Shown: positions 41,668 to 63,800 of the stretch, one piece after another
Layout of the letters: every line of letters begins with the position of its first letter
Numbering within the stretch: the first letter of the stretch is position 1
Source of the DNA: the human T2T-CHM13v2.0 reference genome, Homo sapiens
Assembly (NCBI RefSeq): GCF_009914755.1
Contig: NC_060947.1
DNA: 64,000 nucleotides
Reading direction: 5' to 3' (one strand)
Made by a program: the position numbers and the translations under genes
Notes under the pieces: model-generated
What the model was told of the DNA's origin: nothing
What the model saw: only the letters and a program-made list of their open reading frames with translations
Databases searched by the model: none

Positions 41668-42320
<653 letters not shown>

Positions 42321-43781
42321 TATTAATTAATAATAATAATTAAAGGATTATGCATAACAATAAAATTCAGAAAGATTTTTGATAGAGGTGATATGATTAT
42401 TAGCAAAATCATTTAAATTCGGAAAAGCGTAGGACTGCAAACTTAAAATTTTAGTCATTGTTCTCCTGAGATGGGAAAAGGCTGTGATTCTTCATCTGAA
42501 GAGTCTTATCTTGGGTACTACTTGCCATCAATGACGAATTGTTTAAATTTGAGGAGGAGCGAACTGAATTACATTGGTCTATGCCAACTAAGGCAGGTTA
42601 GATTGAAAAGATTGTTGACAAAAGGAAAAATTAAAAAGGGAAGACAGAGTATTTGGTTCAGTGAAAAGGCTACAACAGCGAGGACGACACTTGGGAACCA
42701 GAGCAGCACCTCGTGAACTGTCAGGAATACATCCACGACTTCAACAGACACCACACGGAAAGGCAGAAAGAGAGCACATTGACCAGAACAAACAGGTCCT
42801 CTCCCAACAATGCTAGGAAACAAATCTCCAGATCCACAAACAGCAGCTTTTCTAAGTCCTCTCCTAAGGCACCAGTGATTGGGAGAGATCACGAATCCAA
42901 AAACAGCCAGCTGTTTGCTGCCAGCCAGCAGTTCAGGAAGAACACAGCTCCGTCTCTCTGCAGCCAGATGAAAATGGACCTAGTGAAGTCAGGTATCAAG
43001 ATCCTCATGCCTAAGAGCCCCATTAAGCAGGACGCAGTGAATGGCTTTCAGAGTGAGAGCTCCAAAAAACTGGACCCCACAGAGCAGGGTCAGGAGGAAT
43101 GGTAGTACCCAAAGTGGCAGCGGAAAAGCCAGACAAAGCTTTATTGGGCCCTGGTACTGAGCAGGCCAGGATGGGGAGCAAGCCTGGATACACCTGCTAG
43201 TGCCTCAGGTGCATGGCCCCGTAAGTGCAGCCATGGCCACAGGCCTACTCGTTAACAGGAAAGCTACATCTACATTCATGGATGCATTAACAGCCAGTGG
43301 GACAACCAACATACAGACATCTGTTACAGCAGTAACTGTCAGCAAAAGGAAATTTATTGACAACAGAAGAGAACAGCCTTTTAACAAACGATTGCATTTC
43401 AGTGTGAGGCAAACAGAAAGTGCCTAAGGATACAGAGTTATTGTGGCCGGGACAAAAGATGGCTTCACCCACATCTTATTCACTAGATCAACAGGGAATA
43501 ACTCAGTAAATACAGCTGTAATGAAAAAAGTCTACCAGCTCTGACAACCACTGCTGATTACAGCAAGCTTGTACTGCTCAGCGCCTTTAACAGTGTCTTC
43601 TGTTGTGGACTTGACTTTATTTATTTTATGCAGTGTTTGACAGATGACAGAAAAAGAGAAAGCATTAAAATGGGAGAACCTATCAGAAACGTAGTGAATA
43701 ATCTATGGCCATATCACTCTGAAAGTGACAGAAAAAAAGAAAGTGTTAAATAGGCAGAAGCTAACAGAAACTTCGTGAATA

Positions 43782-43868
43782 ATCCCTGGCCATACCACCC
43801 GAAATAGGCACGATTTCTTCGGATATCAGAAGCTAAGCAGTATCTGCCCTGTATAGTGCATGGACACA
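43782..43868 (+). pseudogene. RNA5S: Tailless, 3'-truncated 5S rRNA retropseudogene (nt 1-~87) inside the CDYL retrocopy
   Basis: Colinear with 5S (GGCCATACCACCC; AGCTAAGCAG falls exactly at nt 50 = 43831); 16-bp TSD agaaacttcgtgaata (43766-43781) / aggaactttgtgaata (43869-43884). Confidence 0.85.
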
Positions 43869-44033
43869 AGGAACTTTGTGAATACTATTACTCCGTTCAA
43901 AAAACCTGTTACTGAAGTAAAAGAAGTTATCTGAAACATCGTGAATAATCTATGACCATACGACCCTGAATATGATAGAAAAAGAGAAAGCATTAAAATG
44001 GCAGAAGAGAAGCTACCAGAAACGTCGTACATA

Positions 44034-44137
44034 ATCTACGGCCATAGCACAGTGAACGCTCCAATCTCATCTGGTCACTGAAGTACAGAGTACACGAGAT
44101 TGCGCCCAGGGTACGGCCTCTTCACTACGTGGATGGG
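44034..44137 (+). pseudogene. RNA5S: 5S rRNA fragment carrying an internal inverted duplication (first copy of the arrayed form)
   Basis: ATCTACGGCCATAGCAC..GAACGC..ATCTCATCTG..GAAG[tacagagtacacgagattgcgc]CCAGGGTACGGCCT..TGGATGGGAG. Confidence 0.8.
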
Positions 44138-44964
44138 AGGAACTTCGTGAAGGCTATCATTTCACTCAAACTGAATATTATTGAAGCAGTCACTATCCCA
44201 GCCATTCGACTAGGAGCATCCGTATTGCCCCTTTATGATATGGTTTAGGCTAATCAAAAGACTTGGTTTCCAACAACCTCTTCTACCTCTGAGCAGATTC
44301 CAGACAGCTGATTTACCATTACGTTTCCGAAATCATGGGACGACCAGCTGCAAGCGAGACGATGCTCAGTGGGTTGAAACTGATCACACAGAAGGCATTT
44401 GGCAACGGCCTTCTCTCCCAGCTGTTTGGGTCCTGGACCTTCACTCAGGAAATTGGTGGCTCAGATCAAGAAGCTTGTCTCATGTAATCGAATAGTGCTG
44501 GAGGAATCCAAAGCCTTGGTGTGCTGCAACATGAAGAGGGATCTGGAACAGGCCAACGAGAGAACATGTGAAGTACTGAAGAAAATCTGGGGTTCTGCCC
44601 AAGGGTTGGACTCCATGTGAAAGGACTTAGAAAGGAAGATGAATGAGTTTCGAGTGTCAGGCTGCACACTGACCACATCGGGTTCCAGCTGAGAAGAACA
44701 CCATTGCTTCCATCTGTCCTTATCCATTCTCACAGCCTGAAACAAGCTCACTGGTAGCTTATGCTTGCAAGCAGGACTGGGAACATTCACGCTATTTATT
44801 CGGGAGTACTGACTCCAGAAAGTACAGCAACCTTGGACTGCTCAGCGCCATTGGTAGGGTCTTCCGTGGTGCACTTGGCCTTATTTATTTTTTACGACAT
44901 TTGACAGAGGGCAGAGAGAGAGCAAGCATTAAAACGGCAGAAGCTACTGGAAACGTCGTGAGCA

Positions 44965-45070
44965 ATCTACAGTCATACCACCGTGAACGCTCCCAATCTT
45001 GTCTGGTCTCTGAAGTACAGAGTAGATGCGATTGGGCCCAGGTTCGGGCCTGTTTCATTGTTGGATAGAA
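44965..45070 (+). pseudogene. RNA5S: Representative arrayed 5S rRNA-derived segment (one per monomer, 20 copies from 44965 to ~63675)
   Basis: ATCTACAGTCATACCACCGTGAACGCTCCCAATCTTGTCTG..GAAG...CAGGTTCGGGCCTG..TTGGATAGAAG versus 5S GTCTACGGCCATACCACCCTGAACGCGCCCGATCTCGTCTG..GAAG..CAGGGTCGGGCCTG..TTGGATGGGAG. Confidence 0.85.
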
Positions 45071-45750
45071 GGAACTTCCTGAATGCTTTGTTCCCCTTAA
45101 GCTGCGTATTGTTGAAGCACTCAATGGCCCAGCCATTCGACTAGGAGCATCCGTATTGCCTCTTTGTGATATGGTTTAGGCTAATGAAAAGACTTGGTTT
45201 CCAACACCCTCTTCTACCTCTGGGCAGATTCCAGATAGCTGATCTACCATTACGTTTCCGAAATCATGGGACGACCAGCTGCAAGCGAGACGATGCTCAG
45301 TGGGTTGAAACTGATCACACAGGAGGCATTTGGCAACAGCCTTCTCTCCCAGCTGTTTGGATCCTGGACCTTCAATCAGGAAATTGGTGGCTCAGATCAA
45401 GAAGCTTGTCTCATGTAATCGAATAGTGCTGGAGGAATCCAAAGCCTTGGTGTGCTCCAACATGAAGAGGGATCTGGAACAGGCCAACGAGAGAACATGT
45501 GAAGTACTGAAGAAAATCTGGGGTTCTGCCCAAGGGTTGGACTCCATGTGAAAGGACTTAGAAAGGAAGATGAATGAGTTTCGAGTGTCAGGCTGCACAC
45601 TGACCACATCGGGATCCAGCTGAGAAGAACACCATTGCTTCCGGCTGTCCTTCTTCATTCTCACAGCCTGAAACAAGCTCACTGGTAGCTTATGCTTGCA
45701 AGCAGGACCGAGAACATTCACGCTATTTATTCGGGAGTACTCTGGATAAA

Positions 45751-45825
45751 TCGTCCCATTATTTCGGAAATGTAATGCTAGGTCAGGTATCTGGAATCTT
45801 CCTGGAGGTAGAAGAGGGTATTGGA
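45751..45825 (-). repeat. Inverted 75-nt copy of monomer sequence (first of 8, in long monomers only)
   Basis: Reverse complement of 45200-45274, 66/75 identical by hand alignment. Confidence 0.93.
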
Positions 45826-48800
45826 TGGAAGGAACTTCGTGAATGCGATCATTGAACTCCAGAAAGTACACCAACCTTGTACTGCTCAGGGCCTTAGGTA
45901 GGGTCTTCTGTGGCGCACTTGACCTTATTTATGTTTTACAACGTTTGACAGAGGACAGAAAGAGAGCAAGCATTAAAAGGGCAAAAGCTACCAGAAACAT
46001 CGTGAACAATCTACAGCCATACCACCGTGAACGCTCCCAATCTCATCTGGCCTCTGAAGTACAGAGTAGAGGAGATTGGGCCCAGGTAGGGGCCTGTTTC
46101 ATAGTTGGATGGAAGGAACTTTGTGAATGCTATCATTTAACTTAAGCTGTCTATTACTAAACCAGTCAGCCGCCCAGCCATTCGACTAGGAGCATCCGTA
46201 TTGCCTCTTTGTGATATGGTTTAGGCTAATGAAAAGACTTGGATTCCAACACCCTCTTCTACCTCTGAGCAGATCCCAGATAGCTGATCTACCATTACGT
46301 TTCCGAAATCATGGGACGACCAGCTGCAAGCGAGACGATGCTCAGTGGGTTGAAACTGATCACTCAGGAGGCATTTGGCAACGGCCTTCTCTCCCAGCTG
46401 TTTGGGTCCTGGACCTTCACTCAGGAAATTGGTGGCTCAGATCAAGAAGCTTGTCTCATTTAATCGAATAGTGCTGGAGGAATCCAAAGCCTTGGTGTGC
46501 TGCAACATGAAGAGGGATCTGGAACAGGCCAACGAGAGAACATGTGAAGTACTGAAGAAAATCTGGGGTTCTGCCCAAGGGTTGGACTCCATGTGAAAGG
46601 ACTTAGAAAGGAAGATGAATGAGTTTCGAGTGTCAGGCTGCACACTGACCACATCGGGTTCCGGCTGAGAAGAACACCATTGCTTCCATCTGTCCTTATC
46701 CATTCTCACAGCCTGAAACAAGCTCACTGGTAGCTTATGCTTGCAAGCAGGACTGGGAACATTCACGCTATTTATTCGGGAGTACTGACTCCAGAAAGTA
46801 CAGCAACCTTGGACTCCTCAGCGCCATTGGTACGGTCTTCCGTGGTGCACTTGGCCTTATTTATTTTTTACGACATTTGACAGAGGACAGAGAGAGAGCA
46901 AGCATTAAAACGGCAGAAGCTACTGGAAACGTCGTGAACAATCTACTGTCATACCACCGTGAACGCTCCAAATCTTGTCTGGTCTCTGAAGTACAGAGTA
47001 GATGCGATTGGGTCCAGATTCGGGCCTGTTGCATTGTTGGATAGAAGGAACTTCCTGAATGCTATTGTTCAGCTTAAGCTGCGTATTGTTGAAGCACTCA
47101 ATGGCCCAGCCATTCGACTAGGAGCATCCGTATTGCCTCTTTGTGATATGGTTTAGGCTAATGAAAAGACTTGGTTTCCAACACCCTCTTCTACCTCTGG
47201 GCAGATTCCAGATAGCTGATCTACCATTACGTTTCCGAAATCATGGGACGACCAGCTGCAAGTGAGACGATGCTCAGTGGGTTGAAACTGATCACACAGG
47301 AGGCATTTGGCAACGGCCTTCTCTCCCAGCTGTTTGGAACCTGGACCTTCACTCAGGAAATTGGTGGCTCAGATCAAGAAGCTTGTCTCATGTAATCGAA
47401 TATTGCTGGAGGAATCCAAAGCCTTGGTGTGCTGCAACATGAAGAGGGATCTGGAACAGGCCAACGAGAGAACATGTGAAGTACTGAAGAAAATCTGGGG
47501 TTCTGCCCAAGGGTTGCACTCCATGTGAAAGGACTTAGAAAGGAAGATGAACGAGTTTCGAGTGTCAGGCTGCACACTGACCACATGGGGTTCCGGCTGA
47601 GAAGAACACCATTGCTTCCACCTGTCCTTATCCATTCTCACAGCCTGAGACAAGCTCACTGGTAGCTTATGCTTCCAAGCAGGACTAGGAACATTCACGC
47701 TATTTATTTGGGAGTACTGACTCCAGAAAGTACAGGAAGCTTGGACTGCTCGGCGCCATTGGTAGGGTCTTCCGTGGTGCACTTGGCCTTATTTATTTTT
47801 TACGACATTTGACAGAGGGCAGAGAGAGAGCAAGCATTAAAACGGCAGAAGCTACTGGAAACGTCGTGAGCAATCTACAGTCATACCACCGTGAACGCTC
47901 CCAATCTTCTCTGGTCTCTGAAGTACAGAGTAGATGCAATTGGGCCCAGGTTCGGGCCTGTTGCATTGTTGGATAGAAGGAACTTCCTGAATGCTTTGTT
48001 CCGCTTAAGCTGCGTATTGTTGAAGCACTCAATGGCCCAGCCATTCGACTAGGAGCATCCGTATTGCCTCTTTGTGATATGGTTTAGGCTAATGAAAAGA
48101 TTTGGTTTCCAACACGCTCTTCTACCTGTGGGCAGATTCCACATAGCTGATCTACCATTACGTTTCCGAAATCATGGGACGACCAGCTGCAAGCGAGACG
48201 ATGCTCAGTGGGTTGAAACTGATCACACAGGAGGCATTTGGCAACAGCCTTCTCTCCCAGCTGTTTGGATCCTGGACCTTCAATCAGGAAATTGGTGGCT
48301 CAGATCAAGAAGCTTGTCTCATGTAATTGAATAGTGCTGGAGGAATCCAAAGCCTTGGTGTGCTGCAACATGAAGAGGGATCTGGAACAGGCCAACGAGA
48401 GAACATGTGAAGTACTGAAGAAAATCTGGGGTTCTGCCCAAGGGTTGGACTCCATGTGAAAGGACTTAGAAAGGAAGATGAATGAGTTTTGAGTGTCAGG
48501 CTGCACACTGACACATCGGGATCCAGCTGAGAAGAACACCATTGCTTCCGGCTGTCCTTCTTCATTCTCACAGCCTGAAACAAGCTCACTGGTAGCTTAT
48601 GCTTGCAAGCAGGACCGGGAACATTCACGCTATTTATTCGGGAGTACTCTGGATAAATCATTCCATTATTTCGGAAATGTAATGCTAGGTCAGGTATCTG
48701 GAATCTTCCTGGAGGTAGAAGAGGGTATTGGATGGAAGGAACTTCGTGAATGCGATCATTGAACTCCAGAAAGTACACCAACCTTGTACTGCTCAGGGCC

Positions 48801-51800
48801 TTAGTTAGGGTCTTCTGTGGCGCACTTGACCTTATTTATGTTTTACAACGTTTGACAGAGGACAGAAAGAGAGCAAGCATTAAAAGGGCAAAAGCTACCA
48901 GAAGCATCGTGAACAATCTACAGCCATACCACCATGAACGCTCCCAATCTCGTCTGGCCTCTGAAGTACAGAGTAGAGGAGATTGGGCCCAGGTAGGGGC
49001 CTGTTTCATAGTTGGATGGAAGGAACTTTGTGAATGCTATCATTTAACTTAAGCTGTCTATTACTAAACCAGTCAGCCGCCCAGCCATTCGACTAGGAGC
49101 ATCCGTATTGCCTCTTTGTGATATGGTTTAGGCTAATGAAAAGACTTGGTTTCCAACACCCTCTTCTACCTCTGAGCAGATCCCACATAGCTGATCTACC
49201 ATTACGTTTCCGAAATCATGGGACGACCAGCTGCAAGCGAGACGATGCTCAGTGGGTTGAAACTGATCACTCAGGAGGCAGTTGGCAACGGCCTTCTCTT
49301 CCAGCTCTTTGGGTCCTGGACCTTCACTCAGGAAATTGGTGGCTCAGATCAAGAAGCTTGTCTCATGTAATCGAATAGTGCTGGAGGAATCCAAAGCCTT
49401 GGTGTGCTGCAACATGAAGAGGGATCTGGAACAGGCCAACGAGAGAACATGTGAAGTACTGAAGAAAATCTGGGGTTCTGCCCAAGGGTTGGACTCCATG
49501 TGAAAGGACTTAGAAAGGAAGATGAATGAGTTTCGAGTGTCAGGCTGCACACTGACCACATCGGGTTCCGGCTGAGAAGAACACCATTGCTTCCATCTGT
49601 CCTTATCCATTCTCACAGCCTGAAACAAGCTCACTGGTAGCTTATGCTTGCAAGCAGGACTGGGAACATTCACGCTATTTATTCGGGAGTACTGACTCCA
49701 GAAAGTACAGCAACCTTGGACAGCTCAGCGCCATTGGTACGGTCTTCCGTGGTGCACTTGGCCTTATTTATTTTTTGCGACATTTGACAGAGGACAGAGA
49801 GAGAGCAAGCATTAACACGGCAGAAGCTACTGGAAACGTCCTGAACAATCTACAGTCATACCACCGTGAACGCTCCCAATCTTGTCTGGTCTCTGAAGTA
49901 CAGAGTAGATGCGATTGGGTCCAGGTTCGGGCCTGTTTCATTGTTGGATAGAAGGAACTTCCTGAATTCTATTGTTCAGCTTAAGCTGCATATTGTTGAA
50001 GCACTCAATGGCCCAGCCATTCGACTAGGAGCATCCGTATTGCCTCTTTGTGATATGGTTTAGGCTAATGAAAAGACTTGGTTTCCAACACCCTCTTCTA
50101 CCTCTGGGCAGATTCCAGATAGCTGATCTACCATTACGTTTCCGAAATCATGGGACGACCAGCTGCAAGTGAGACGATGCTCAGTGGGTTGAAACTGATC
50201 ACACAGGAGGCATTTGGCAACGGCCTTCTCTCCCAGCTGTTTGGAACCTGGACCTTCACTCAGGAAATTGGTGGCTCAGATCAAGAAGCTTGTCTCATGT
50301 AATCGAATATTGCTGGAGGAATCCAAAGCTTTGGTGTGCTGCAACATGAAGAGGGATCTGGAACAGGCCAACGAGAGAACATGTGAAGTACTGAAGAAAA
50401 TCTGGGGTTCTGCCCAAGGGTTGGACTCCATGTGAAAGGACTTAGAAAGGAAGATGAACGAGTTTCGAGTGTCAGGCTGCACACTGACCACATGGGGTTC
50501 CGGCTGAGAAGAACACCATTGCTTCCACCTGTCCTTATCCATTCTCACAGCCTGAGACAAGCTCACTGGTAGCTTATGCTTCCAAGCAGGACTAGGAACA
50601 TTCACGCTATTTATTTGGGAGTACTGACTCCAGAAAGTACAGGAAGCTTGGACTGCTCGGCGCCATTGGTAGGGTCTTCCGTGGTGCACTTGGCCTTATT
50701 TATTTTTTACGACATTTGACAGAGGGCAGAGAGAGAGCAAGCATTAAAACGGCAGAAGCTACTGGAAACGTCGTGAGCAATCTACAGTCATACCACCATG
50801 AACGCTCCCAATCTTCTCTGGTCTCTGAAGTACAGAGTAGATGCAATTGGGCCCAGGTTCGGGCCTGTTTCATTGTTGGATAGAAGGAACTTTCTGAATG
50901 CTTTCTTCCGCTTAAGCTGCGTATTGTTGAAGCACTCAATGGCCCAGCCATTGGACTAGGAGCATCCGTATTGCCTCTTTGTGATATGGTTTAGGCTAAT
51001 GAAAAGACTTGGTTTCCAACACCCTCTTCTACCTCTGGGCAGATTCCAGATAGCTGATCTACCATTACGTTTCCGAAATCATGGGACGACCAGCTGCAAG
51101 CGAGACGATGCTCAGTGGGTTGAAACTGATCACACAGGAGGCATTTGGCAACGGCCTTCTCTCCCAGCTGTTTGGATCCTGGACCTTCAATCAGGAAATT
51201 GGTGGCTCAGATCAAGAAGCTTGTCTCATGCAATCGAATAGTGCTGGAGGAATCCAAAGCCTTGGTGTGCTGCAACATGAAGAGGGATCTGGAACAGGCC
51301 AACGAGAGAACATGTGAAGTACTGAAGAAAATCTGGGGTTCTGCCCAAGGGTTGGACTCCATGTGAAATGACTTAGAAAGGAAGATGAATGAGTTTCGAG
51401 TGTCAGGCTGCACACTGACCACATCGGGTTCCAGCTGAGAAGAACACCATTGCTTCCGGCTGTACTTCTTCATTCTCACAGCCTGAAAAAAGCTTACTGG
51501 TAGCTTATGCTTGCAAGCAGGACCGGGAACATTCACGCTATTTATTCGGGAGTACTCTGGATAAATCATCCCATTATTTCGGAAATGTAATGCTAGGTCA
51601 GGTATCTGGAATCTTCCTGGAGGTAGAAGAGGGTATTGGATGGAAGGAACTTCGTGAATGCGATCATTGAACTCCAGAAAGTACACCAACCTTGTACTGC
51701 TCAGGGCCTCAGGTAGGGTCTTCTGTGGCGCACTTGACCTTATTTATGTTTTACAACGTTTGACAGAGGACAGAAAGAGAGCAAGCATTAAAAGGGCAAA

Positions 51801-54800
51801 AGCTACCAGAAACATCGTGAACAATCTACAGCCATACCACCGTGAACGCTCCCAATCTCGTCTGGCCTCTGAAGTACAGAGTAGAGGAGATTGGGCCCAG
51901 GTAGGGGCCTGTTTCATAGTTGGATGGAAGGAACTTTGTGAATGCTATCATTTAACTTAAGCTGTCTATTACTAAACCAGTCAGCCGCCCAGCCATTCGA
52001 CTAGGAGCATCCGTATTGCCTCTTTGTGATATGGTTTAGGCTAATGAAAAGACTTGGTTTCCAACACCCTCTTCTACCTCTGGGCAGATTCCAGATAGCT
52101 GATCTACCATTACGTTTCCGAAATCATGGGACGACCAGCTGCAAGCGAGACGATGCTCAGTGGGTTGAAACTGATCACACAGGAGGCATTTGGCAACGGC
52201 CTTCTCTCCCAGCTGTTTGGATCCTGGACCTTCAATCAGGAAATTGGTGGCTCAGATCAAGAAGCTTGTCTCATGTAATCGAATAGTGCTGGAGGAATCC
52301 AAAGCCTTGGTGTGCTGCAACATGAAGAGGGATCTGGAACAGGCCAACGAGAGAACATGTGAAGTACTGAAGAAAATCTGGGGTTCTGCCCAAGGGTTGG
52401 ACTCCATGTGAAAGGACTTAGAAAGGAAGATGAACGAGTTTCGAGTGTCAGGCTGCACACTGTCCACATCGGGTTCCGGCTGAGAAGAACACCATTGCTT
52501 CCATCTGTCCTTATCCATTCTCACAGCCTGAAACAAGCTCACTGGTAGCTTATGCTTGCAAGCAGGACTGGGAACATTCACGCTATTTATTCGGGAGTAC
52601 TGACTCCAGAAAGTACAGCAACCTTGGACAGCTCAGCGCCATTGGTACGGTCTTCCGTGGTGCACTTGGCCTTATTTATTTTTTGCGACATTTGACAGAG
52701 GACAGAGAGAGAGCAAGCATTAAAACGGCAGAAGCTACTGGAAACGTCCTGAACAATCTACAGTCATACCACCGTGAATGCTCCCAATCTTGTCTGGTCT
52801 CTGAAGTACAGAGTAGATGCGATTGGGTCCAGGTTCGGGCATGTTTCATTGTTGGATAGAAGGAACTTCCTGAATTCTATTGTTCAGCTTAAGCTGCGTA
52901 TTGTTGAAGCACTCAATGGCCCAGCCATTCGACTAGGAGCATCCGTATTGCCTCTTTGTGATATGGTTTAGGCTAATGAAAAGACTTGGTTTCCAACACC
53001 CTCTTCTACCTCTGGGCAGATTCCAGATAGCTGATCTACCATTACGTTTCCGAAATCATGGGACGACCAGCTGCAAGTGAGACGATGCTCAGTGGGTTGA
53101 AACTGATCACACAGGAGGCATTTGGCAACGGCCTTCTCTCCCAGCTGTTTGGAACCTGGACCTTCACTCAGGAAATTGTTGGCTCAGATCAAGAAGCTTG
53201 TCTCATGTAATCGAATATTGCTGGAGGAATCCAAAGCCTTGGTGTGCTGCAACATGAAGAGGGATCTGGAACAGGCCAACGAGAGAACATGTGAAGTACT
53301 GAAGAAAATCTGGGGTTCTGCCCAAGGGTTGGACTCCATGTGAAAGGACTTAGAAAGGAAGATGAACGAGTTTCGAGTGTCAGGCTGCACACTGACCACA
53401 TGGGGTTCCGGCTGAGAAGAACACCATTGCTTCCACCTGTCCTTATCCATTCTCACAGCCTGAGACAAGCTCACTGGTAGCTTATGCTTCCAAGCAGGAC
53501 TAGGAACATTCACGCTATTTATTTGGGAGTACTGACTCCAGAAAGTACAGGAAGCTTGGACTGCTCGGCGCCATTGGTAGGGTCTTCCGTGGTGCACTTG
53601 GCCTTATTTATTTTTTACGACATTTGACAGAGGGCAGAGAGAGAGCAAGCATTAAAACGGCAGAAGCTACTGGAAACGTCGTGAGCAATCTACAGTCATA
53701 CCACCGTGAACGCTCCCAATCTTCTCTGGTCTCTGAAGTACAGAGTAGATGCAATTGGGCCCAGGTTCGGGCCTGTTTCATTGTTGGACAGAAGGAACTT
53801 TCTGAATGCTTTGTTCCGCTTAAGCTGCGTATTGTTGAAGCACTCAATGGCCCAGCCATTGGACTAGGAGCATCCGTATTGCCTCTTTGTGATATGGTTT
53901 AGGCTAATGAAAAGACTTGGTTTCCAACACCCTCTTCTACCTCTGGGCAGATTCCAGATAGCTGATCTACCATTACGTTTCCGAAATCATGGGACGACCA
54001 GCTGCAAGCGAGACGATGCTCAGTGGGTTGAAACTGATCACACAGGAGGCATTTGGCAACGGCCTTCTCTCCCAGCTGTTTGGATCCTGGACCTTCAATC
54101 AGGAAATTGGTGGCTCAGATCAAGAAGCTTGTCTCATGTAATCGAATAGTGCTGGAGGAATCCAAAGCCTTGGTGTGCTGCAACATGAAGAGGGATCTGG
54201 AACAGGCCAACGAGAGAACATGTGAAGTACTGAAGAAAATCTGGGGTTCTGCCCAAGGGTTGGACTCCATGTGAAATGACTTAGAAAGGAAGATGAATGA
54301 GTTTCGAGTGTCAGGCTGCACACTGACCACATCGGGTTCCAGCTGAGAAGAACACCATTGCTTCCGGCTGTACTTCTTCATTCTCACAGCCTGAAACAAG
54401 CTTACTGGTAGCTTATGCTTGCAAGCAGGACCGGGAACATTCACGCTATTTATTCGGGAGTACTCTGGATAAATCGTCCCATTATTTCGGAAATGTAATG
54501 CTAGGTCAGGTATCTGGAATCTTCCTGGAGGTAGAAGAGGGTATTGGATGGAAGGAACTTCGTGAATGCGATCATTGAACTCCAGAAAGTACACCAACCT
54601 TGTACTGCTCAGGGCCTCAGGTAGGGTCTTCTGTGGCACACTTGACCTTATTTATGTTTTACAACGTTTGACAGAGGACAGAAAGAGAGCAAGCATTAAA
54701 AGGGCAAAAGCTACCAGAAACATCGTGAACAATCTACAGCCATACCACCGTGAACGCTCCCAATCTCGTCTGGCCTCTGAAGTACAGAGTAGAGGAGATT

Positions 54801-57800
54801 GGGCCCAGGTAGGGGCCTGTTTCATAGTTGGATGGAAGGAACTTTGTGAATGCTATCATTTAACTTAAGCTGTCTATTACTAAACCAGTCAGCCGCCCAG
54901 CCATTCGACTAGGAGCATCCGTATTGCCTCTTTGTGATATGGTTTAGGCTAATGAAAAGACTTGGTTTCCAACACCCTCTTCTACCTCTGGGCAGATTCC
55001 AGATAGCTGATCTACCATTACGTTTCCGAAATCATGGGACGACCAGCTGCAAGTGAGACGATGCTCAGTGGGTTGAAACTGATCACACAGGAGGCATTTG
55101 GCAACGGCCTTCTCTCCCAGCTGTTTGGAACCTGGACCTTCACTCAGGAAATTGTTGGCTCAGATCAAGAAGCTTGTCTCATGTAATCGAATATTGCTGG
55201 AGGAATCCAAAGCCTTGGTGTGCTGCAACATGAAGAGGGATCTGGAACAGGCCAACGAGAGAACATGTGAAGTACTGAAGAAAATCTGGGGTTCTGCCCA
55301 AGGGTTGGACTCCATGTGAAAGGACTTAGAAAGGAAGATGAACGAGTTTCGAGTGTCAGGCTGCACACTGACCACATGGGGTTCCGGCTGAGAAGAACAC
55401 CATTGCTTCCACCTGTCCTTATCCATTCTCACAGCCTGAGACAAGCTCACTGGTAGCTTATGCTTCCAAGCAGGACTAGGAACATTCACGCTATTTATTT
55501 GGGAGTACTGACTCCAGAAAGTACAGGAAGCTTGGACTGCTCGGCGCCATTGGTAGGGTCTTCCGTGGTGCACTTGGCCTTATTTATTTTTTACGACATT
55601 TGACAGAGGGCAGAGAGAGAGCAAGCATTAAAACGGCAGAAGCTACTGGAAACGTCGTGAGCAATCTACAGTCATACCACCGTGAACGCTCCCAATCTTC
55701 TCTGGTCTCTGAAGTACAGAGTAGATGCAATTGGGCCCAGGTTCGGGCCTGTTTCATTGTTGGATAGAAGGAACTTTCTGAATGCTTTCTTCCGCTTAAG
55801 CTGCGTATTGTTGAAGCACTCAATGGCCCAGCCATTGGACTAGGAGCATCCGTATTGCCTCTTTGTGATATGGTTTAGGCTAATGAAAAGACTTGGTTTC
55901 CAACACCCTCTTCTACCTCTGGGCAGATTCCAGATAGCTGATCTACCATTACGTTTCCGAAATCATGGGACAACCAGCTGCAAGCGAGACGATGCTCAGT
56001 GGGTTGAAACTGATCACACAGGAGGCATTTGGCAACGGCCTTCTCTCCCAGCTGTTTGGATCCTGGACCTTCAATCAGGAAATTGGTGGCTCAGATCAAG
56101 AAGCTTGTCTCATGCAATCGAATAGTGCTGGAGGAATCCAAAGCCTTGGTGTGCTGCAACATGAAGAGGGATCTGGAACAGGCCAACGAGAGAACATGTG
56201 AAGTACTGAAGAAAATCTGGGGTTCTGCCCAAGGGTTGGACTCCATGTGAAATGACTTAGAAAGGAAGATGAATGAGTTTCGAGTGTCAGGCTGCACACT
56301 GACCACATCGGGTTCCAGCTGAGAAGAACACCATTGCTTCCGGCTGTACTTCTTCATTCTCACAGCCAGAAACAAGCTTACTGGTAGCTTATGCTTGCAA
56401 GCAGGACCGGGAACATTCACGCTATTTATTCGGGAGTACTCTGGATAAATCATCCCATTATTTCGGAAATGTAATGCTAGGTCAGGTATCTGGAATCTTC
56501 CTGGAGGTAGAAGAGAGTATTGGATGGAAGGAACTTCGTGAATGCGATCATTGAACTCCAGAAAGTACACCAACCTTGTACTGCTCAGGGCCTCAGGTAG
56601 GGTCTTCTGTGGCGCACTTGACCTTATTTATGTTTTACAACGTTTGACAGAGGACAGAAAGAGAGCAAGCATTAAAAGGGCAAAAGCTACCAGAAACATC
56701 GTGAACAATCTACAGCCATACCACCGTGAACGCTCCCAATCTCGTCTGGCCTCTGAAGTACAGAGTAGAGGAGATTGGGCCCAGGTAGGGGCCTGTTTCA
56801 TAGTTGGATGGAAGGAACTTTGTGAATGCTATCATTTAACTTAAGCTGTCTATTACTAAACCAGTCAGCTGCCCAGCCATTCGACTAGGAGCATCCGTAT
56901 TGCCTCTTTGTGATATGGTTTAGGCTAATGAAAAGACTTGGTTTCCAACACCCTCTTCTACCTCTGAGCAGATCCCACATAGCTGATCTACCATTACGTT
57001 TCCGAAATCATGGGACGACCAGCTGCAAGCGAGACGATGCTCACTGGGTTGAAACTGATCACTCAGGAGGCAGTTGGCAACGGCCTTCTCTCCCAGCTGT
57101 TTGGGTCCTGGACCTTCACTCAGGAAATTGGTGGCTCAGATCAAGAAGCTTGTCTCATGTAATCGAATAGTGCTGGAGGAATCCAAAGCCTTGGTGTGCT
57201 GCAACATGAAGAGGCATCTGGAACAGGCCAACGAGAGAACATGTGAAGTACTGAAGAAAATCTGGGGTTCTGCCCAAGGGTTGGACTCCATGTGAAAGGA
57301 CTTAGAAAGGAAGATGAATGAGTTTCGAGTGTCAGGCTGCACACTGACCATGTCGGGTTCCGGCTGAGAAGAACACCATTGCTTCCATCTGTCCTTATCC
57401 ATTCTCACAGCCTGAAACAAGCTCACTGGTAGCTTATGCTTGCAAGCAGGACTGGGAACATTCACGCTATTTATTCGGGAGTACTGACTCCAGAAAGTAC
57501 AGCAACCTTGGACTGCTCAGCGCCATTGGTACGGTCTTCCGTGGTGCACTTGGCCTTATTTATTTTTTACGACATTTGACAGAGGACAGAGAGAGAGCAA
57601 GCATTAAAACGGCAGAAGCTACTGGAAACGTCGTGAACAATCTACAGTCATACCACCGTGAACGCTCCCAATCTTGTCTGGTCTCTGAAGTACAGAGTAG
57701 ATTCGATTGGGCCCAGGTTCGGGCCTGTTTCATTGTTGGATAGAAGGAACTTCCTGAATTCTATTGTTCAGCTTAAGCTGCGTATTGTTGAAGCACTCAA

Positions 57801-60800
57801 TGGCCCAGCCATTCGACTAGGAGCATCCGTATTGCCTCTTTGTGATATGGTTTAGGCTAATGAAAAGACTTGGTTTCCAACACCCTCTTCTACCTCTGGG
57901 CAGATTCCAGATAGCTGATCTACCATTACGTTTCCGAAATCATGGGACGACCAGCTGCAAGTGAGACGATGCTCAGTGGGTTGAAACTGATCACACAGGA
58001 GGCATTTGGCAACGGCCTTCTCTCCCAGCGGTTTGGAACCTGGACCTTCACTCAGGAAATTGGTGGCTCAGATCAAGAAGCTTGTCTCATGTAATCGAAT
58101 ATTGCTGGAGGAATCCAAAGCCTTGGTGTGCTGCAACATGAAGAGGGATCTGGAACAGGCCAACGAGAGAACATGTGAAGTACTGAAGAAAATCTGGGGT
58201 TCTGCCCAAGGGTTGGACTCCATGTGAAAGGACTTAGAAAGGAAGATGAACGAGTTTCGAGTGTCAGGCTGCACACTGACCACATGGGGTTCCGGCTGAG
58301 AAGAACACCATTGCTTCCACCTGTCCTTATCCATTCTCACAGCCTGAGACAAGCTCACTGGTAGCTTATGCTTCCAAGCAGGACTAGGAACATTCACGCT
58401 ATTTATTTGGGAGTACTGACTCCAGAAAGTACAGGAAGCTTGGACTGCTCGGCGCCATTGGTAGGGTCTTCCGTGGTGCACTTGGCCTTATTTATTTTTT
58501 ACGACATTTGACAGAGGGCAGAGAGAGAGCAAGCATTAAAACGGCAGAAGCTACTGGAAACGTCGTGAACAATCTACAGTCATACCACCATGAACGCTCC
58601 CAATCTTGTCTGGTCTCTGAAGTACAGAGTAGATGCGATTGGGCCCAGGTTCGGGCCTGTTTCATTGTTGGATAGAAGGAACTTCCTGAATGCTTTGTTC
58701 CGCTTAAGCTGCGTATTGTTGAAGCACTCAATGGCCCAGCCATTCGACTAGGAGCATCCGTATTGCCTCTTTGTGATATGGTTTAGGCTAATGAAAAGAC
58801 TTGGTTTCCAACACCCTCTTCTACCTCTGAGCAGATTCCAGATAGCTGATCTACCATTACGTTTCCGAAATCATGGGACGACCAGCTGCAAGCGAGACGA
58901 TGCTCAGTGGGTTGAAACTGATCACACAGGAGGCATTTGGCAACAGCCTTCTCTCCCAGCTGTTTGGATCCTGGACCTTCAATCAGGAAATTGGTGGCTC
59001 AGATCAAGAAGCTTGTCTCATGTAATCGAATAGTGCTGGAGGAATCCAAAGCCTTGGTGTGCTGCAACATGAAGAGGGATCTGGAACAGGCCAACGAGAG
59101 AACATGTGAAGTACTGAAGAAAATCTGGGGTTCTGCCCAAGGGTTGGACTCCATGTGAAAGGACTTAGAAAGGAAGATGAATGAGTTTCGAGTGTCAGGC
59201 TGCACACTGACCACATCGGGTTCCAGCTGAGAAGAACACCATTGCTTCCGGCTGTCCTTCTTCATTCTCACAGCCTGAAACAAGCTCACTGGTAGCTTAT
59301 GCTTGCAAGCAGGACCGGGAACATTCACGCTATTTATTCGGGAGTACTCTGGATAAATCGTCCCATTATTTCGGAAATGTAATGCTAGGTCAGGTATCTG
59401 GAATCTTCCTGGAGGTAGAAGAGGGTATTGGATGGAAGGAACTTCGTGAATGCGATCATTGCACTCCAGAAAGTACACCAACCTTGTACTGCTCAGGGCC
59501 TCAGGTAGGGTCTTCTGTGGCGCACTTGACCTTACTTATGTTTTACAACGTTTGACGGAGGACAGAAAGAGAGCAAGCATTAAAAGGGCAAAAGCTACCA
59601 GAAACATCGTGAACAATCTACAGCCATACCACCGTGAACGCTCCCAATCTCGTCTGGCCTCTGAAGTACAGAGTAGAGGAGATTGGGCCCAGGTAGGGGC
59701 CTGTTTCATAGTTGGATGGAAGGAACTTTGTGAATGCTATCATTTAACTTAAGCTGTCTATTACTAAACCAGTCAGCCGCCCAGCCATTCGACTAGGAGC
59801 ATCCGTATTGCCTCTTTGTGATATGGTTTAGGCTAATGAAAAGACTTGGTTTCCAAAACCCTCTTCTACCTCTGAGCAGATCCCACATAGCTGATCTACC
59901 ATTACGTTTCCGAAATCATGGGACGACCAGCTGCAAGTGAGACGATGCTCAGTGGGTTGAAACTGATCACTCAGGAGGCAGTTGGCAACGGCCTTCTCTC
60001 CCAGCTGTTTGGATCCTGGACCTTCACTCAGGAAATTGGTGGCTCAGAACAGGAAGCTTGTCTCATGTAATCGAATAGTGCTGGAGAAATCCAAAGCCTT
60101 GGTGTGCTGCAACATGAAGAGGGATCTGGAACAGGCCAACGAGAGAACATGTGAAGTACTGAAGAAAATCTGGGGTTCTGCCCAAGGGTTGGACTCCATG
60201 TGAAAGAACATAGAAAGGAAGATGAATGAGTTTCGATTGTCAGGCTGCACACTGACCACGTCGGGTTCCGGCTGAGAAGAACACCATTGCTTCCATCTGT
60301 CCTTATCCATTCTCAAAGCCTGAAACAAGCTCACTGGTAGCTTATGCTTGCAAGCAGGACTGGGAACATTCACGCTATTTATTCGGGAGTACTGACTCCA
60401 GAAAGTACAGCAACCTTGGACTGCTCAGCGCCATTCGTACGGTCTTCCGTGGTGCACTTGGCCTTATTTATTTTTTACGACATTTGACAGAGTGCAGAGA
60501 GAGAGCAAGCATTAAAACGGCAGAAGCTACTGGAAACGTCGTGAACAATGTACAGTCATACCACCGTGAACGCTCCCAATCTTGTCTGGTCTCTGAAGTA
60601 CAGAGTAGATGCGATTGGGCCCAGGTTGGGGCCTGTTTCATTGTTGGATAGAAGGAACTTCCTGAATGCTTTGTTCCCCTTAAGCTGCGTATTGTTGAAG
60701 CACTCAATGGCCCAGCCATTCGACCAGGAGCATCCGTATTGCCTCTTTGTGATATGGTTTAGGCTAATGAAAAGACTTGGTTTCCAACACCCTCTTCTAC

Positions 60801-63800
60801 CTCTGGGCAGATTCCAGATAGCTGATCTACCATTACGTTTCCGAAATCATGGGACGACCAGCTGCAAGCGAGACGATGCTCAGTGGGTTGAAACTGATCA
60901 CACAGGAGGCATTTGGCAACGGCCTTCTCTCCCAGCTGTTTGGATCCTGGACCTTCACTCAGGAAATTGGTGGCTCAGATCAAGAAGCTTGTCTCATCTA
61001 ATCGAATAGTGCTGGAGGAATCCAACACCTTGGTGTGCTGCAACATGAAGAGGGATCTGGAACAGGCCAACGAGAGAACATGTGAAGTACTGAAGAAAAT
61101 CTGGGGTTCTGCCCAAGGGTTGGACTCCATGTGAAAGGACTTAGAAAGGAAGATGAATGAGTTTCGAGTGTCAGGCTGCACACTGACCACATCGGGATCC
61201 AGCTGAGAAGAACACCATTGCTTCCGGCTGTCCTTCTTCATTCTCACAGCCTGAAACAAGCTCACTGGTAGCTTATGCTTGCAAGCAGGACCGGGAACAT
61301 TCACGCTATTTATTCGGGAGTACTCTGGATAAATCATCCCATTATTTCGGAAATGTAATGCTAGGTCAGGTATCTGGAATCTTCCTGGAGGTAGAAGAGG
61401 GTATTGGATGGAAGGAACTTCGTGAATGCGATCATTGAACTCCAGAAAGTACACCAACCTTGTACTGCTCAGGGCCTCAGGTAGGGTCTTCTGTGGCGCA
61501 CTTGACCTTATTTATGTTTTACAACGTTTGACAGAGGACAGAAAGAGAGCAAGCATTAAAAGGGCAAAAGCTACCAGAAACATCGTGAACAATCTACAGC
61601 CATACCACCGTGAACGCTCCCAATCTCGTCTGGCCTCTGAAGTACAGAGTAGAGGAGATTGGGCCCAGGTAGGGGCCTGTTTCATAGTTGGATGGAAGGA
61701 ACTTTGTGAATGCTATCATTTAACTTAAGCTGTCTATTACTAAACCAGTCAGCCGCCCAGCCATTCGACTAGGAGCATCCGTATTGCCTCTTTGTGATAT
61801 GGTTTAGGCTAATGAAAAGACTTGGTTTCCAACACCCTCTTCTACCTCTGAGCAGATCCCACATAGCTGATCTACCATTACGTTTCCGAAATCATGGGAC
61901 GACCAGCTGCAAGCGAGACGATGCTCACTGGGTTGAAACTGATCACTCAGGAGGCAGTTGGCAACGGCCTTCTCTCCCAGCTGTTTGGGTCCTGGACCTT
62001 CACTCAGGAAATTGGTGGCTCAGAACAGGAAGCTTGTCTCATGTAATCGAATAGTGCTGGAGGAATCCAAAGCCTTCGTGTGCTGCAACATGAAGAGGGA
62101 TCTGGAACAGGCCAACGAGAGAACATGTGAAGTACTGAAGAAAATCTGGGGTTCTGCCCAAGGGTTGGACTCCATGTGAAAGGACTTAGAAAGGAAGATG
62201 AACGAGTTTCGAGTGTCAGGCTGCACACTGACCACATGGGGATCCGGCTGAGAAGAACACCATTGCTTCCACCTGTCCTTATCCATTCTCACAGCCTGAG
62301 ACAAGCTCACTGGTAGCTTATGCTTCCAAGCAGGACTAGGAACATTCACGGTATTTATTCGGGAGTACTGACTCCGGAAAGTACAGGAAGCTTGGACTGC
62401 TCGGCGCCATTGGTAGGGTCTTCCGTGGTGCACTTGGCCTTATTTATTTTTTACGACATTTGACAGAGGGCAGAGAGAGAGCAAGCATTAAAACGGCAGA
62501 AGCTACTGGAAACGTCGTGAGCAATCTACAGTCATACCACCGTCAACGCTCCCAATCTTGCCTGGTCTCTGAAGTACAGAGTAGATGCAATTGGGCCCAG
62601 GTTCGGGCCTGTTTCATTGTTGGATAGAAGGAACTTCCTGAATGCTTTGTTCAGCTTAAGCTGCGTATTGTTGAAGCACTCAATGGCCCAGCCATTCGAC
62701 TAGGAGCATCCGTATTGCCTCTTTGTGATATGGTTTAGGCTAATGAAAAGACTTGGTTTCCAACACCCTCTTCTACCTCTGGGCAGATTCCAGATAGCTG
62801 ATCTACCATTACGTTTCCGAAATCATGGGACGATCAGCTGCAAGCGAGACGATGCTCAGTGGGTTGAAACTGATCACACAGGAGGCATTTGGCAACGGCC
62901 TTCTCTCCCAGCTGTTTGGATCCTGGACCTTCACTCAGGAAATTGGTGGCTCAGATCAAGAAGCTTGTCTCATGTAATCGAATAGTGCTGGAGGAATCCA
63001 ACACCTTGGTGTGCTGCAACATGAAGAGGGATCTAGAACAGGCCAACGAGAGAACATGTGAAGTACTGAAGAAAATCTGGGGTTCTGCCCAAGGGTTGGA
63101 CTCCATGTGAAAGGACTTAGAAAGGAAGATGAATGAGTTTCGAGTGTCAGGCTGCACACTGACCACATCGGGATCCAGCTGAGAAGAACACCATTGCTTC
63201 CGGCTGTCCTTCTTCATTCTCACAGCCTGAAACAAGCTCACTGGTAGCTTATGCTTGTAAGCAGGAGCGGGAACATTCACGCTATTTATTCGGGAGTACT
63301 CTGGATAAATCATCCCATTATTTCGGAAATGTAATGCTAGGTCAGGTATCTGGAATCTTCCTGGAGGTAGAAGAGGGTATTGGATGGAAGGAACTTCGTG
63401 AATGCGGTCATTGAACTCCAGAAAGTACACCAACCTTGTACTGCTCAGGGCCTTAGGTAGGGTCTTCTGTGGCGCACTTGACCTTATTTATGTTTTACAA
63501 CGTTTGACAGAGGACAGAAAGAGAGCAAGCATTAAAAGGGCAAAAGCTACCAGAAACATCGTGAACAATCTACAGCCATACCACCGTGAACGCTCCCAAT
63601 CTCGTCTGGCCTCTGAAGTACAGAGTAGAGGAGATTGGGCCCAGGTAGGGGCCTGTTTCATAGTTGGATGGAAGGAACTTTGTGAATGCTATCATTTAAC
63701 TTAAGCTGTCTATTACTAAACCAGTCAGCCGCCCAGCCATTCGACTAGGAGCATCCGTATTGCCTCTTTGTGATATGGTTTAGGCTAATGAAAAGACTTG

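What the first reader, a model, noticed from the sequence alone, without database searches (positions are those of the whole stretch)
45200..45825. Long monomers carry a built-in 75-nt antisense arm: hairpin-RNA / endo-siRNA-like architecture
Seen: 45751-45825 is the reverse complement of 45200-45274. It has 9 differences in 75 nt, and 4 of those are G-U wobbles on a + strand transcript, so about 70/75 positions pair. Arms recur at ~45751, 48658, 51566, 54474, 56450, 59358, 61334 and 63310. Each arm can pair with the sense segment ~475 nt upstream or ~420 nt downstream, or with any of the ~21 sense copies. The ORF track echoes this: minus-strand QYPLLPPGRFQIPDLALHFRNNG versus plus-strand QHPLLPLGRFQIADLPLRFRNHG. 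Known: inverted repeats in pseudogenes give Dicer-dependent endo-siRNAs in mouse oocytes, and Drosophila hpRNAs work similarly. Inference: a read-through transcript would form repeated ~75-bp duplexes.
Basis: partly seen in the sequence, partly recalled or inferred. Interest (0 to 1): 0.8.

Follow-up and report, generated by a model that had tools for sequence, protein, structure and literature searches.

The report
Inverted patch in CDYL-pseudogene tandem repeat
A 75-base inverted copy really does sit in every long unit of an X-linked tandem repeat built from a dead CDYL gene copy, but it looks like a copying scar multiplied with the repeat rather than a small-RNA gene.

Summary
45751-45825 is the reverse complement of 45200-45274 (66/75 Watson-Crick, 4 G-U and 5 mismatches on a + transcript). 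There are 8 arms and 21 sense copies in the window, and 11 and 26 in the whole array, which runs to window coordinate 69341.

The array is the tandemly amplified 3' part of a processed CDYL pseudogene. Monomers are 931/932 nt (S) or 1044/1045 nt (L). L equals S plus a 113-nt filler placed at the monomer-monomer junction.

The filler is an inverted copy of monomer positions 1-75 plus a direct 33-nt copy of a piece 285 nt downstream. The two copies overlap by 5 nt. This is the signature of serial template switching.

All 11 L and none of 14 S monomers carry it, with the same 9 fixed differences. It therefore arose once and was multiplied with the higher-order repeat.

Arm-to-sense divergence (12%) equals the L-to-S divergence nearby. 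No later change is compensatory. No Watson-Crick run exceeds 15 bp. The arm matches CDYL mRNA at only 54/75.

The RNA duplex is thermodynamically real if the array is transcribed. Nothing supports a selected hairpin-RNA or endo-siRNA role. Expression and small-RNA data could not be examined.

The parts
42598..44268 (+). Unamplified 5' part of the processed CDYL pseudogene (chromodomain and linker), plus a degenerate edge copy of the monomer's right block with small internal duplications
   Evidence: Pfam Chromo hit on 42665-43105, E 3.7e-07. 43559-43723 and 43974-44268 match the monomer right block at 77-83%. TRF finds an 81-nt period at 43645-43798. The start 42598 is taken from the hub annotation.
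44269..64000 (+). Tandem array of CDYL-pseudogene monomers (the part inside the window; the array runs on to 69341). S = 931/932 nt, L = 1044/1045 nt. Order: S LSS LSS LSS LS LSS LS LS LS LS L L plus a partial monomer
   Evidence: Monomer starts and lengths. PDB chain 2gtr (CDYL) matches the translated monomer at E 2.3e-22, 2.3e-06 and 1.8e-15.
45200..45274 (+). Sense segment (monomer positions 1-75). It is the upstream pairing partner of the first arm and corresponds to residues ~135-159 of PDB chain 2gtr_A (CDYL)
45742..45854 (+). 113-nt filler that distinguishes L from S monomers. It sits at the junction between the end of one monomer's CDYL 3'UTR piece and the restart of CDYL mid-coding sequence
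   Evidence: Alignment of L with three S monomers: a single 113-column gap. The array ends at monomer position ~540-542, next to the insertion point after position 542.
45751..45825 (-). Inverted arm: reverse-complement copy of monomer positions 1-75, with 9 fixed differences
45821..45853 (+). Direct 33-nt copy of 46105-46137 (31/33 identical). It overlaps the inverted arm by 5 nt (45821-45825, TTGGA), which is microhomology at the switch point
   Evidence: blastn of the filler against its surroundings; junction print-out
46105..46137 (+). Template of the direct part of the filler. It spans the 3' end of the 5S-like insert and the resumption of CDYL coding sequence
46245..46319 (+). Downstream sense segment, the alternative pairing partner (64 Watson-Crick + 4 G-U). 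It is the partner chosen in the 1.2-kb minimum-free-energy fold
48658..48732 (-). Inverted arm, copy 2
51566..51640 (-). Inverted arm, copy 3
54474..54548 (-). Inverted arm, copy 4
56450..56524 (-). Inverted arm, copy 5
59358..59432 (-). Inverted arm, copy 6
61334..61408 (-). Inverted arm, copy 7
63310..63384 (-). Inverted arm, copy 8. Three more lie beyond the window, starting at 65286, 67263 and 68308

Best explanation
The arm is a mutational scar, not a gene.

A processed CDYL pseudogene on Xp22.31 had its last ~931 nt amplified head to tail. This stretch runs from mid enoyl-CoA-hydratase-like domain to near the end of the 3'UTR, and includes a decayed 5S-rRNA-derived insert.

In one monomer, a replication or repair polymerase left its template at the monomer junction. 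It copied ~75-79 nt of the opposite strand of the monomer's start. It then switched at a 5-6-nt microhomology (GTTGGA/TTGGA) to a direct template ~285 nt downstream and copied 33 nt. It returned at a 2-4-nt microhomology (AACT/ACT). The result was a 113-nt templated filler.

This 'long' monomer became one member of a higher-order repeat (L-S-S, L-S, L). Unequal exchange multiplied it to 11 copies.

What is shown: the two-part templated make-up of the filler, the microhomology, the single origin, the amplification with the higher-order repeat, and the neutral-looking decay.

What is inferred: the enzymatic pathway (MMBIR/FoSTeS-like versus break repair with templated synthesis), and which junction type came first.

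If the array is transcribed, each arm will form an imperfect 75-bp duplex with a 420-476-nt loop. In human cells the most likely fate of such a duplex is A-to-I editing, as for inverted Alu pairs. That is an unselected by-product, and efficient siRNA production is unlikely.
For: (1) L = S + one 113-nt block, with no other length difference.

(2) The block resolves into 45751-45825, the reverse complement of 45200-45274 (88%), and 45821-45853, a direct copy of 46105-46137 (31/33). The two matches overlap by 5 nt. The two templates share GTTGGA at the switch point. The return junction shares AACT/ACT.

(3) The arm carries pseudogene-specific states not seen in CDYL, CDY or the chr3 copy, so it was copied from this array. 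Identities are 66/75 to sense, against 54/75, 48/75 and 48/73.

(4) The arm is present in 11 of 11 L and 0 of 14 S monomers, always 550-551 nt from the monomer start. The same 9 differences are fixed in all 8 window arms. This points to a single origin.

(5) L copies differ from each other by 0.8-1.6%. L and S differ by 3.8-4.0% in positions 1-542 and by 15% in positions 656-960. The structure is therefore a higher-order repeat that expanded recently.

(6) Arm-sense divergence is 9/75 = 12%. L-S divergence is 11.9% over the adjacent 160 nt, polarised as 9 L-derived and 8 S-derived changes. There is no excess conservation of pairing.

(7) Every later copy-specific change in an arm or its partner adds a mismatch. 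None of the 5 mismatches or 4 wobbles is repaired in any of the 8 arm/upstream-partner pairs.

(8) No Rfam family reaches its gathering score in the array.

(9) Base rate: 4.3 million inverted duplicates were reported in the human genome, of which 7.8% were expressed (PMC5398296, abstract and one Results section read).

(10) MMBIR is described as template switching at microhomology that yields templated insertions (PMC8421209, abstract start seen in the search listing only).
Against: - The filler lies within about 2 nt of the original duplication junction. A later random insertion would hit that spot rarely, at roughly a few nt in 931. The filler may instead belong to the founding junction; see the rival explanation.
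- The left junction shows no clear microhomology. It carries 5 nt (ATAAA) with no template between CTGG and the arm.
- Polarised with the CDYL exon, 7 of the 9 differences are on the arm side, 1 on the sense side and 1 is ambiguous. This asymmetry is two-sided p about 0.07 by my own arithmetic. The model explains it only ad hoc, by error-prone synthesis or by homogenisation of the sense copies.
- An annotated lncRNA (LOC107985634, minus strand) ends at 64407 inside the array, 12-17 nt past a minus-strand AATAAA. Part of the array is therefore probably transcribed, and a function of the duplex cannot be excluded.
- No expression, small-RNA, editing or cross-species data could be examined.
Confidence: 0.8

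Rival explanations
1. Selected hairpin-RNA or endo-siRNA locus. Read-through transcripts of the array fold into repeated 75-bp duplexes. Dicer processes these into small RNAs that regulate CDYL, CDY or the array itself.
For: - The duplex is strongly favoured on either strand (z = -13.6 and -10.1).
- There are 11 arms and 26 partners in one array.
- The 3' end of a minus-strand lncRNA lies inside the array. Reads assigned to that lncRNA are reported from human brain RNA-seq (bioRxiv 10.1101/2025.09.25.677871; one passage read).
- There is a human precedent for a pseudogene hairpin giving esiRNAs (psiPPM1K, PMC3616710; abstract and passages read).
Against: - The longest Watson-Crick run is 11-15 bp in 286 of 286 combinations.
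- The 12% divergence equals the local neutral level.
- 0 compensatory changes were found.
- The arm matches the CDYL exon at 54/75 (longest exact match 9 nt) and CDY at 48/75 (longest 8 nt).
- Production of functional siRNA from expressed long dsRNA is the bottleneck of mammalian somatic RNAi (PMC6391682, abstract read).
- No small-RNA evidence was available.
Confidence: 0.05
2. Same templated origin but the opposite order of events. The 113-nt filler is the junction of the founding duplication, a complex tandem duplication made by serial template switches. L is then the ancestral monomer type and S arose by loss of the filler.
For: - The filler sits exactly at the monomer-monomer junction, and the array ends at monomer position ~540-542, the same breakpoint.
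- Arm-sense divergence (12%) is as old as the L/S split (11.9%).
- A search with the chr3 CDYL copy recovers only right blocks that follow an arm (10 listed, 74-76%) plus the edge copy, and no S-type blocks.
Against: - The first junction of the array (in the monomer starting at 44269) is S-type.
- Polarised with the CDYL exon, the L and S right blocks are equally derived (9 against 8).
- Deleting the filler from L does not give the S junction cleanly; one or two single-base differences remain.
Confidence: 0.3
3. DNA-level role. The inverted repeat forms cruciforms or hairpins in DNA that stall forks or promote recombination, and so shapes array turnover.
For: Inverted repeats are known to be rearrangement-prone (established knowledge, recalled). 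Arms mark the boundaries of the higher-order repeat units.
Against: The spacers are 419-476 nt, the arms are only 75 nt at 85-88% and the longest perfect run is 15 bp. By established knowledge (recalled), such repeats extrude poorly and fall below the usual minimal homology for efficient recombination. No inversion between arm and sense copies is seen: all 26 monomers are in one orientation.
Confidence: 0.03

Closest known systems
Templated insertions from microhomology-mediated template switching (MMBIR/FoSTeS-type junctions)
   Same: The inserted DNA is copied from nearby templates within ~0.5 kb. One copy is in inverted orientation. There are 5-6-nt and 2-4-nt microhomologies at two of the three junctions. 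The general mechanism is as described in PMC8421209 (abstract start seen in the listing only).
   Different: This is an old germline event, fixed and then amplified 11-fold inside a tandem array. One junction has no microhomology and carries 5 untemplated bases. The event itself cannot be observed.
Drosophila hpRNA genes and mouse-oocyte pseudogene hairpins that give endo-siRNAs
   Same: An inverted duplication of pseudogene sequence that can fold back in one transcript. Such hairpins in fly and mouse are summarised in the introduction of PMC3616710.
   Different: Those loci have long, near-perfect arms, and their small RNAs match a target gene (recalled, not checked here). Here the arms are 75 nt, 85-88% paired, with no Watson-Crick run above 15 bp and only 54/75 identity to the parent gene. 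No small RNAs are known.
Human psiPPM1K pseudogene hairpin (esiRNA1)
   Same: A partial retrotranscript pseudogene containing inverted repeats that are predicted to fold into a hairpin (PMC3616710; abstract and passages read).
   Different: psiPPM1K has sequenced small RNAs and functional assays. The present locus has none, and it is a multi-copy array.
Intergenic inverted duplicates of mammalian genomes, and inverted Alu pairs as ADAR substrates
   Same: Arm and spacer lengths fall inside the class surveyed in PMC5398296 (arms 10-10,000 nt, spacer 0-1,000 nt; 4.3 million in human). Imperfect duplexes tens to hundreds of bp long are typical A-to-I editing substrates (recalled).
   Different: It is not built from a transposon pair. 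It is a single templated patch inside a satellite-like array.
Higher-order repeat (HOR) organisation of tandem arrays
   Same: Two monomer classes occur in a recurring order. Copies of the same class (0.8-1.6%) are far more alike than neighbouring classes (3.8-15%).
   Different: The monomer is a ~0.93-kb piece of a processed pseudogene, not a classical satellite. The classes differ by a templated indel and by a sharply bounded 300-nt block of high divergence.

Membership tests
hpRNA / endo-siRNA hairpin locus | Inverted repeat able to form an intramolecular RNA duplex | tested here: met
   75-nt arms with 66 Watson-Crick + 4 G-U pairs. The fold has z = -13.6 on the + strand and -10.1 on the - strand.
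hpRNA / endo-siRNA hairpin locus | Duplex long and perfect enough to yield paired ~21-nt siRNA duplexes | tested here: not met
   The longest Watson-Crick run is 11-15 bp in 286 of 286 arm x sense combinations. The longest run with G-U allowed is 11-21 bp among adjacent partners.
hpRNA / endo-siRNA hairpin locus | One transcript spans both arms | not testable with these tools
   There is only indirect evidence. The annotated minus-strand lncRNA ends at 64407 inside the array, past an AATAAA. Its exon structure was not available.
hpRNA / endo-siRNA hairpin locus | Dicer-dependent 21-23-nt reads from both arms | not testable with these tools
   No small-RNA data are on hand.
hpRNA / endo-siRNA hairpin locus | Extensive complementarity of arm-derived small RNAs to a target gene | tested here: not met
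   The arm matches the CDYL exon at 54/75 (longest exact match 9 nt) and CDY at 48/75 (longest 8 nt). Only the array's own transcripts would match, at 60-66/75.
hpRNA / endo-siRNA hairpin locus | Pairing maintained by selection (slower decay or compensatory change) | tested here: not met
   Arm-sense divergence is 12%, against an L-S background of 11.9-15%. 0 compensatory changes were found. This is a within-genome test only; no other species were compared.
Templated insertion by template switching (MMBIR/FoSTeS-like) | Inserted sequence is copied from nearby sequence | tested here: met
   104 of the 113 nt are explained by two local templates (45200-45274 inverted, 46105-46137 direct), 476 nt upstream and 285 nt downstream.
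Templated insertion by template switching (MMBIR/FoSTeS-like) | Microhomology at switch points | tested here: inconclusive
   There are 5-6 nt at the middle junction and 2-4 nt at the right junction. The left junction has none, plus 5 untemplated bases.
Higher-order tandem repeat | Same-class monomers more similar than adjacent monomers; recurring order | tested here: met
   L-L 0.8-1.6%, S2-S2 0.4-1.4%, L-S 3.8-15%. Pattern: S LSS LSS LSS LS LSS LS LS LS LS L L.
Processed (retro)pseudogene of CDYL | Exons contiguous without introns, disabled frame, A-rich tail | tested here: met
   Bases 1-153 and 298-431 of a contiguous 432-nt monomer stretch match two chr6 exons 10 kb apart. There are stops and frameshifts in the CDYL frame. 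An A-rich stretch follows the last monomer at ~69365.

The most novel reading that the evidence does not exclude
The array is an X-linked, multi-copy hairpin-RNA cluster. The 3' part of the minus-strand lncRNA LOC107985634, or plus-strand read-through, carries up to 11 arms and 26 partners. It would form a set of 75-bp duplexes that are processed into small RNAs or heavily A-to-I edited in germ cells or brain. This would give a primate-specific dsRNA source derived from a CDYL/CDY-family sequence. By analogy with X-linked hairpin suppressors of sex-chromosome conflict in flies, it could act on CDY-family or array transcripts. The evidence here does not exclude transcription or processing. It does show that the duplex has no perfect 21-mer, that it decays at the local neutral rate, and that it hardly matches CDYL or CDY.
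Probability: 0.04. Interest if true: 0.65.

Novelty: new member of a known kind. Interest (0 to 1): 0.2.

Why it matters
This is a clean, datable example of how a single templated inverted insertion creates a new monomer class, and with it a higher-order repeat, in a young pseudogene-derived tandem array. It also shows how such an event seeds many potential dsRNA-forming sites at no selective cost.

It is a caution as well. Striking fold statistics (z below -10) follow automatically from any inverted copy and say nothing about function.

If the array proved to be transcribed through the arms, it would be a compact natural substrate for studying ADAR or Dicer handling of imperfect 75-bp duplexes in human cells. 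As it stands, the finding is ordinary.

Tried and rejected
- **Rfam.** No family reaches gathering score in the array; the only window hit is Metazoa_SRP at 41946-42316. E-value scans of 42300-48200 and 43690-44190 gave nothing relevant. A 201-nt scan gave only chance-level hits, including 5S_rRNA at 11.7 bits, E 8.3.
- **Pfam on monomer ORFs.** 0 families for 5 of 6 translations. Only the upstream chromodomain hit. The CDYL identity of the monomer had to come from PDB sequence searches.
- **Literature.** 'LOC442443' gave 0 papers. 'CDYL pseudogene' gave 0 papers. 'macrosatellite' + 'TBL1X' gave 3 papers, none on this array by title or abstract. 'CDYL' + 'pseudogene' + 'tandem repeat' + 'X chromosome' gave 3 papers on Y ampliconic genes. 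The Xp22.31/T2T/TBL1X search returned papers whose TBL1X hits, in the two I opened, were TBL1XR1. I found no description of this array in the searched library. Subscription journals are not covered.
- **Assembly artefact.** Rejected. The arms carry their own fixed and polymorphic differences and recur at a constant offset in 11 of 11 L monomers.
- **Arm copied from another CDYL-family locus.** Rejected. The arm shares the array's derived states.
- **Substitution asymmetry as evidence for error-prone synthesis.** The 7:1 split is suggestive only and I do not rely on it.

Full report
**Observation**

The repeat finder reports arms 45200-45274 and 45751-45825, 75 nt, 88% complementary, 476 nt apart. 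The same arm also pairs with 46245-46319 at 85%, 419 nt apart.

For the first pair I count 66 Watson-Crick pairs, 4 G-U and 5 mismatches on a plus-strand transcript. On a minus-strand transcript the counts are 66, 1 and 8.

They are the same DNA translated from both copies, in a frame that is not the frame of the parent gene.

**What the array is**

The sense copies are spaced 931/932 nt (S monomers) or 1044/1045 nt (L monomers).

Translated monomer pieces match the solved enoyl-CoA-hydratase-like domain of human CDYL (PDB 2gtr) at E 2.3e-22, 2.3e-06 and 1.8e-15. CDY proteins are close behind. Upstream, 42665-43105 carries the CDYL chromodomain (Pfam Chromo, E 3.7e-07).

A search of the window's own genome shows that a contiguous 432-nt monomer stretch matches two separate chr6 exons 10 kb apart, at 83% and 85%. 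It also matches a continuous copy on chr3 at 75% and CDY copies on chrY at 68-72%. The locus is therefore a processed CDYL pseudogene whose 3' ~931 nt were amplified in tandem.

The array is unique to this place. It runs past the window to coordinate 69341 and holds 26 sense segments and 11 arms. It ends at monomer position ~540-542 and is followed by an A-rich stretch, probably the old poly(A) tail.

The order of monomers is S LSS LSS LSS LS LSS LS LS LS LS L L plus a partial unit.

**Anatomy of the arm**

Aligning one L with three S monomers shows a single difference in length. It is a 113-nt block at 45742-45854.

blastn of that block against its surroundings resolves it into two templated pieces:
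- 45751-45825 is the reverse complement of monomer positions 1-75 (88%).
- 45821-45853 is a direct copy of 46105-46137 (31 of 33).

The two matches overlap by 5 nt (TTGGA). The two templates share GTTGGA at that point, because the first six bases of the monomer are the reverse complement of a hexamer in the downstream piece. The return to the monomer lies in a shared AACT/ACT. The left junction has no clear microhomology and has 5 bases (ATAAA) without a template.

The block sits at the point where the end of the CDYL 3'UTR piece of one monomer meets the restart of mid-coding sequence. This is the array's own duplication junction, and it coincides with the breakpoint at which the array ends.

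**Single origin, amplification and age**

All 11 L monomers carry the arm 550-551 nt from their start, and none of the 14 S monomers does. The same 9 differences from the sense consensus are fixed in all 8 window arms.

L monomers differ from one another by 0.8-1.6%. L differs from S by 3.8-4.0% in positions 1-542 and by 15% in positions 656-960. The arm is therefore a feature of one monomer class in a higher-order repeat that expanded recently, while the class itself is old.

The arm differs from the sense segment by 12%. The L and S consensus sequences differ by 11.9% over the 160 nt that follow the filler. With the CDYL exon as outgroup, that difference splits evenly: 9 L-derived, 8 S-derived, 2 neither. 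The arm thus dates to about the L/S split.

By inference from primate neutral rates (recalled), this is tens of millions of years. It may be an overestimate, because array monomers are farther from CDYL (72%) than the unamplified edge copy is (83.6%).

Polarising the 9 arm/sense differences with the CDYL exon gives 7 arm-derived, 1 sense-derived and 1 ambiguous. The asymmetry is suggestive only.

**Is pairing under selection?**

Nothing says so.
- The arm has diverged from its partner as much as neighbouring sequence that has nothing to pair with.
- In the 8 arm/upstream-partner pairs of the window, none of the 5 mismatches or 4 wobbles is ever repaired. Every copy-specific change adds a mismatch. 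For example, the pair 48108/48658 drops to 61 Watson-Crick pairs.
- Across all 286 arm x sense combinations there are 60-66 Watson-Crick pairs, and the longest uninterrupted run is 11-15 bp. No perfectly paired 21-mer can be cut from any duplex.
- The arm is 54/75 identical to the CDYL exon (longest exact match 9 nt) and 48/75 to CDY (longest 8 nt). Arm-derived antisense small RNAs would not match the parent gene family the way siRNAs do.

If transcribed, the duplex forms.
- 45180-45845 folds at -267 kcal/mol on the plus strand, against a shuffle mean of -202 (z -13.6).
- The same stretch folds at -244 kcal/mol on the minus strand (z -10.1). 0 of 20 shuffles fold as well on either strand.
Partners therefore compete.

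These statistics follow from any inverted copy and are not evidence of function.

On transcription I have only indirect hints. The hub annotation puts the end of the minus-strand lncRNA LOC107985634 at 64407. That position is inside the array, 12-17 nt past a minus-strand AATAAA at 64424-64419. One preprint lists this lncRNA among differentially expressed genes in human brain RNA-seq (10.1101/2025.09.25.677871; one passage read). Whether its last exon reaches the arm at 65286 is unknown.

**Comparison with known systems**

Inverted duplicates with arms of 10-10,000 nt and spacers up to 1 kb number 4.3 million in the human genome, and 7.8% are expressed under strict criteria (PMC5398296, abstract and one Results section read).

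Hairpin-derived endo-siRNAs are known from flies and mouse oocytes. One human pseudogene, psiPPM1K, is reported to give esiRNAs from a hairpin (PMC3616710, abstract and passages read).

In mammalian somatic cells the bottleneck is the production of functional siRNA from long dsRNA (PMC6391682, abstract read).

Set against the defining features of hairpin small-RNA loci, this locus meets only the first, a foldable inverted repeat. It fails on duplex quality, target complementarity and conserved pairing. Transcription and small RNAs could not be tested.

**Verdict**

The best explanation, with confidence about 0.8, is a templated inverted insertion at the monomer junction that arose once and was multiplied with the higher-order repeat. 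Its RNA-pairing potential is an unselected by-product. If the array is transcribed, A-to-I editing is the likeliest consequence (inference from what is known of imperfect long duplexes such as inverted Alu pairs; recalled).

It remains open whether the filler belongs to the founding duplication junction or was inserted later. It also remains open whether any transcript spans an arm.

I found no description of this array in the searched literature.

Noticed in passing
window 46009-46115, and the same place in every monomer; also 43788-43864 and 44035-44139: Each monomer carries a decayed 5S-rRNA-derived insert inside the CDYL coding sequence. blastn with the genome's own 5S gene (from L016) matches 5S positions 2-51 to 46010-46059 at 84% (E 1e-11) and 5S positions 64-89 to 46090-46115 at 81%. 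The best score in 50 shuffles was 26.5 bits, against 55.4 observed. The chr3 CDYL copy lacks the ~107-nt insert, and 14 nt of it align on both sides of the insert, like a target-site duplication. Rfam does not detect it.
   Followed up: partly
window 64001-69341 (locus L014 1-5341): The array continues 5.3 kb beyond the window, with 5 more sense segments and 3 more arms. It ends at monomer position ~540-542 and is followed by an A-rich stretch.
   Followed up: yes
window coordinate 64407-64424 (L014 407-424): The annotated 3' end of the minus-strand lncRNA LOC107985634 (64407, from the hub note) lies 12-17 nt downstream of a minus-strand AATAAA inside an S monomer. This hexamer position was found in both S monomers examined and not in the one L monomer examined. 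It suggests that the lncRNA terminates in the array.
   Followed up: partly
window 44269-64000, monomer positions 1-542 versus 656-960: Homogenisation is mosaic. L and S monomers differ by 3.8-4.0% in the first 542 nt and by 15% in the ~300 nt right after the junction, with a sharp boundary at the filler. Exchange between monomer classes seems confined to the left block.
   Followed up: partly
window 43545-43712 versus array monomers: The unamplified edge copy of the right block is 83.6% identical to the CDYL exon, while the L and S consensus sequences are only 72.0% and 72.7% identical. Amplified monomers appear to have evolved faster than the single-copy part of the same pseudogene. The edge region also holds small internal duplications (81-nt period at 43645-43798).
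   Followed up: no
window 41946-42316: There is a full-length Metazoa_SRP (7SL) match at 91.9 bits, model positions 1-299. It is interrupted by an (ATAG)10 microsatellite at 42113-42152 and lies just upstream of the CDYL pseudogene start.
   Followed up: no
G000:C3:16693955-16694378 (locus L012): A second CDYL-like processed copy on contig C3 is 75% identical to the monomer and continuous across exon boundaries. It has neither the 5S-like insert nor tandem amplification.
   Followed up: partly
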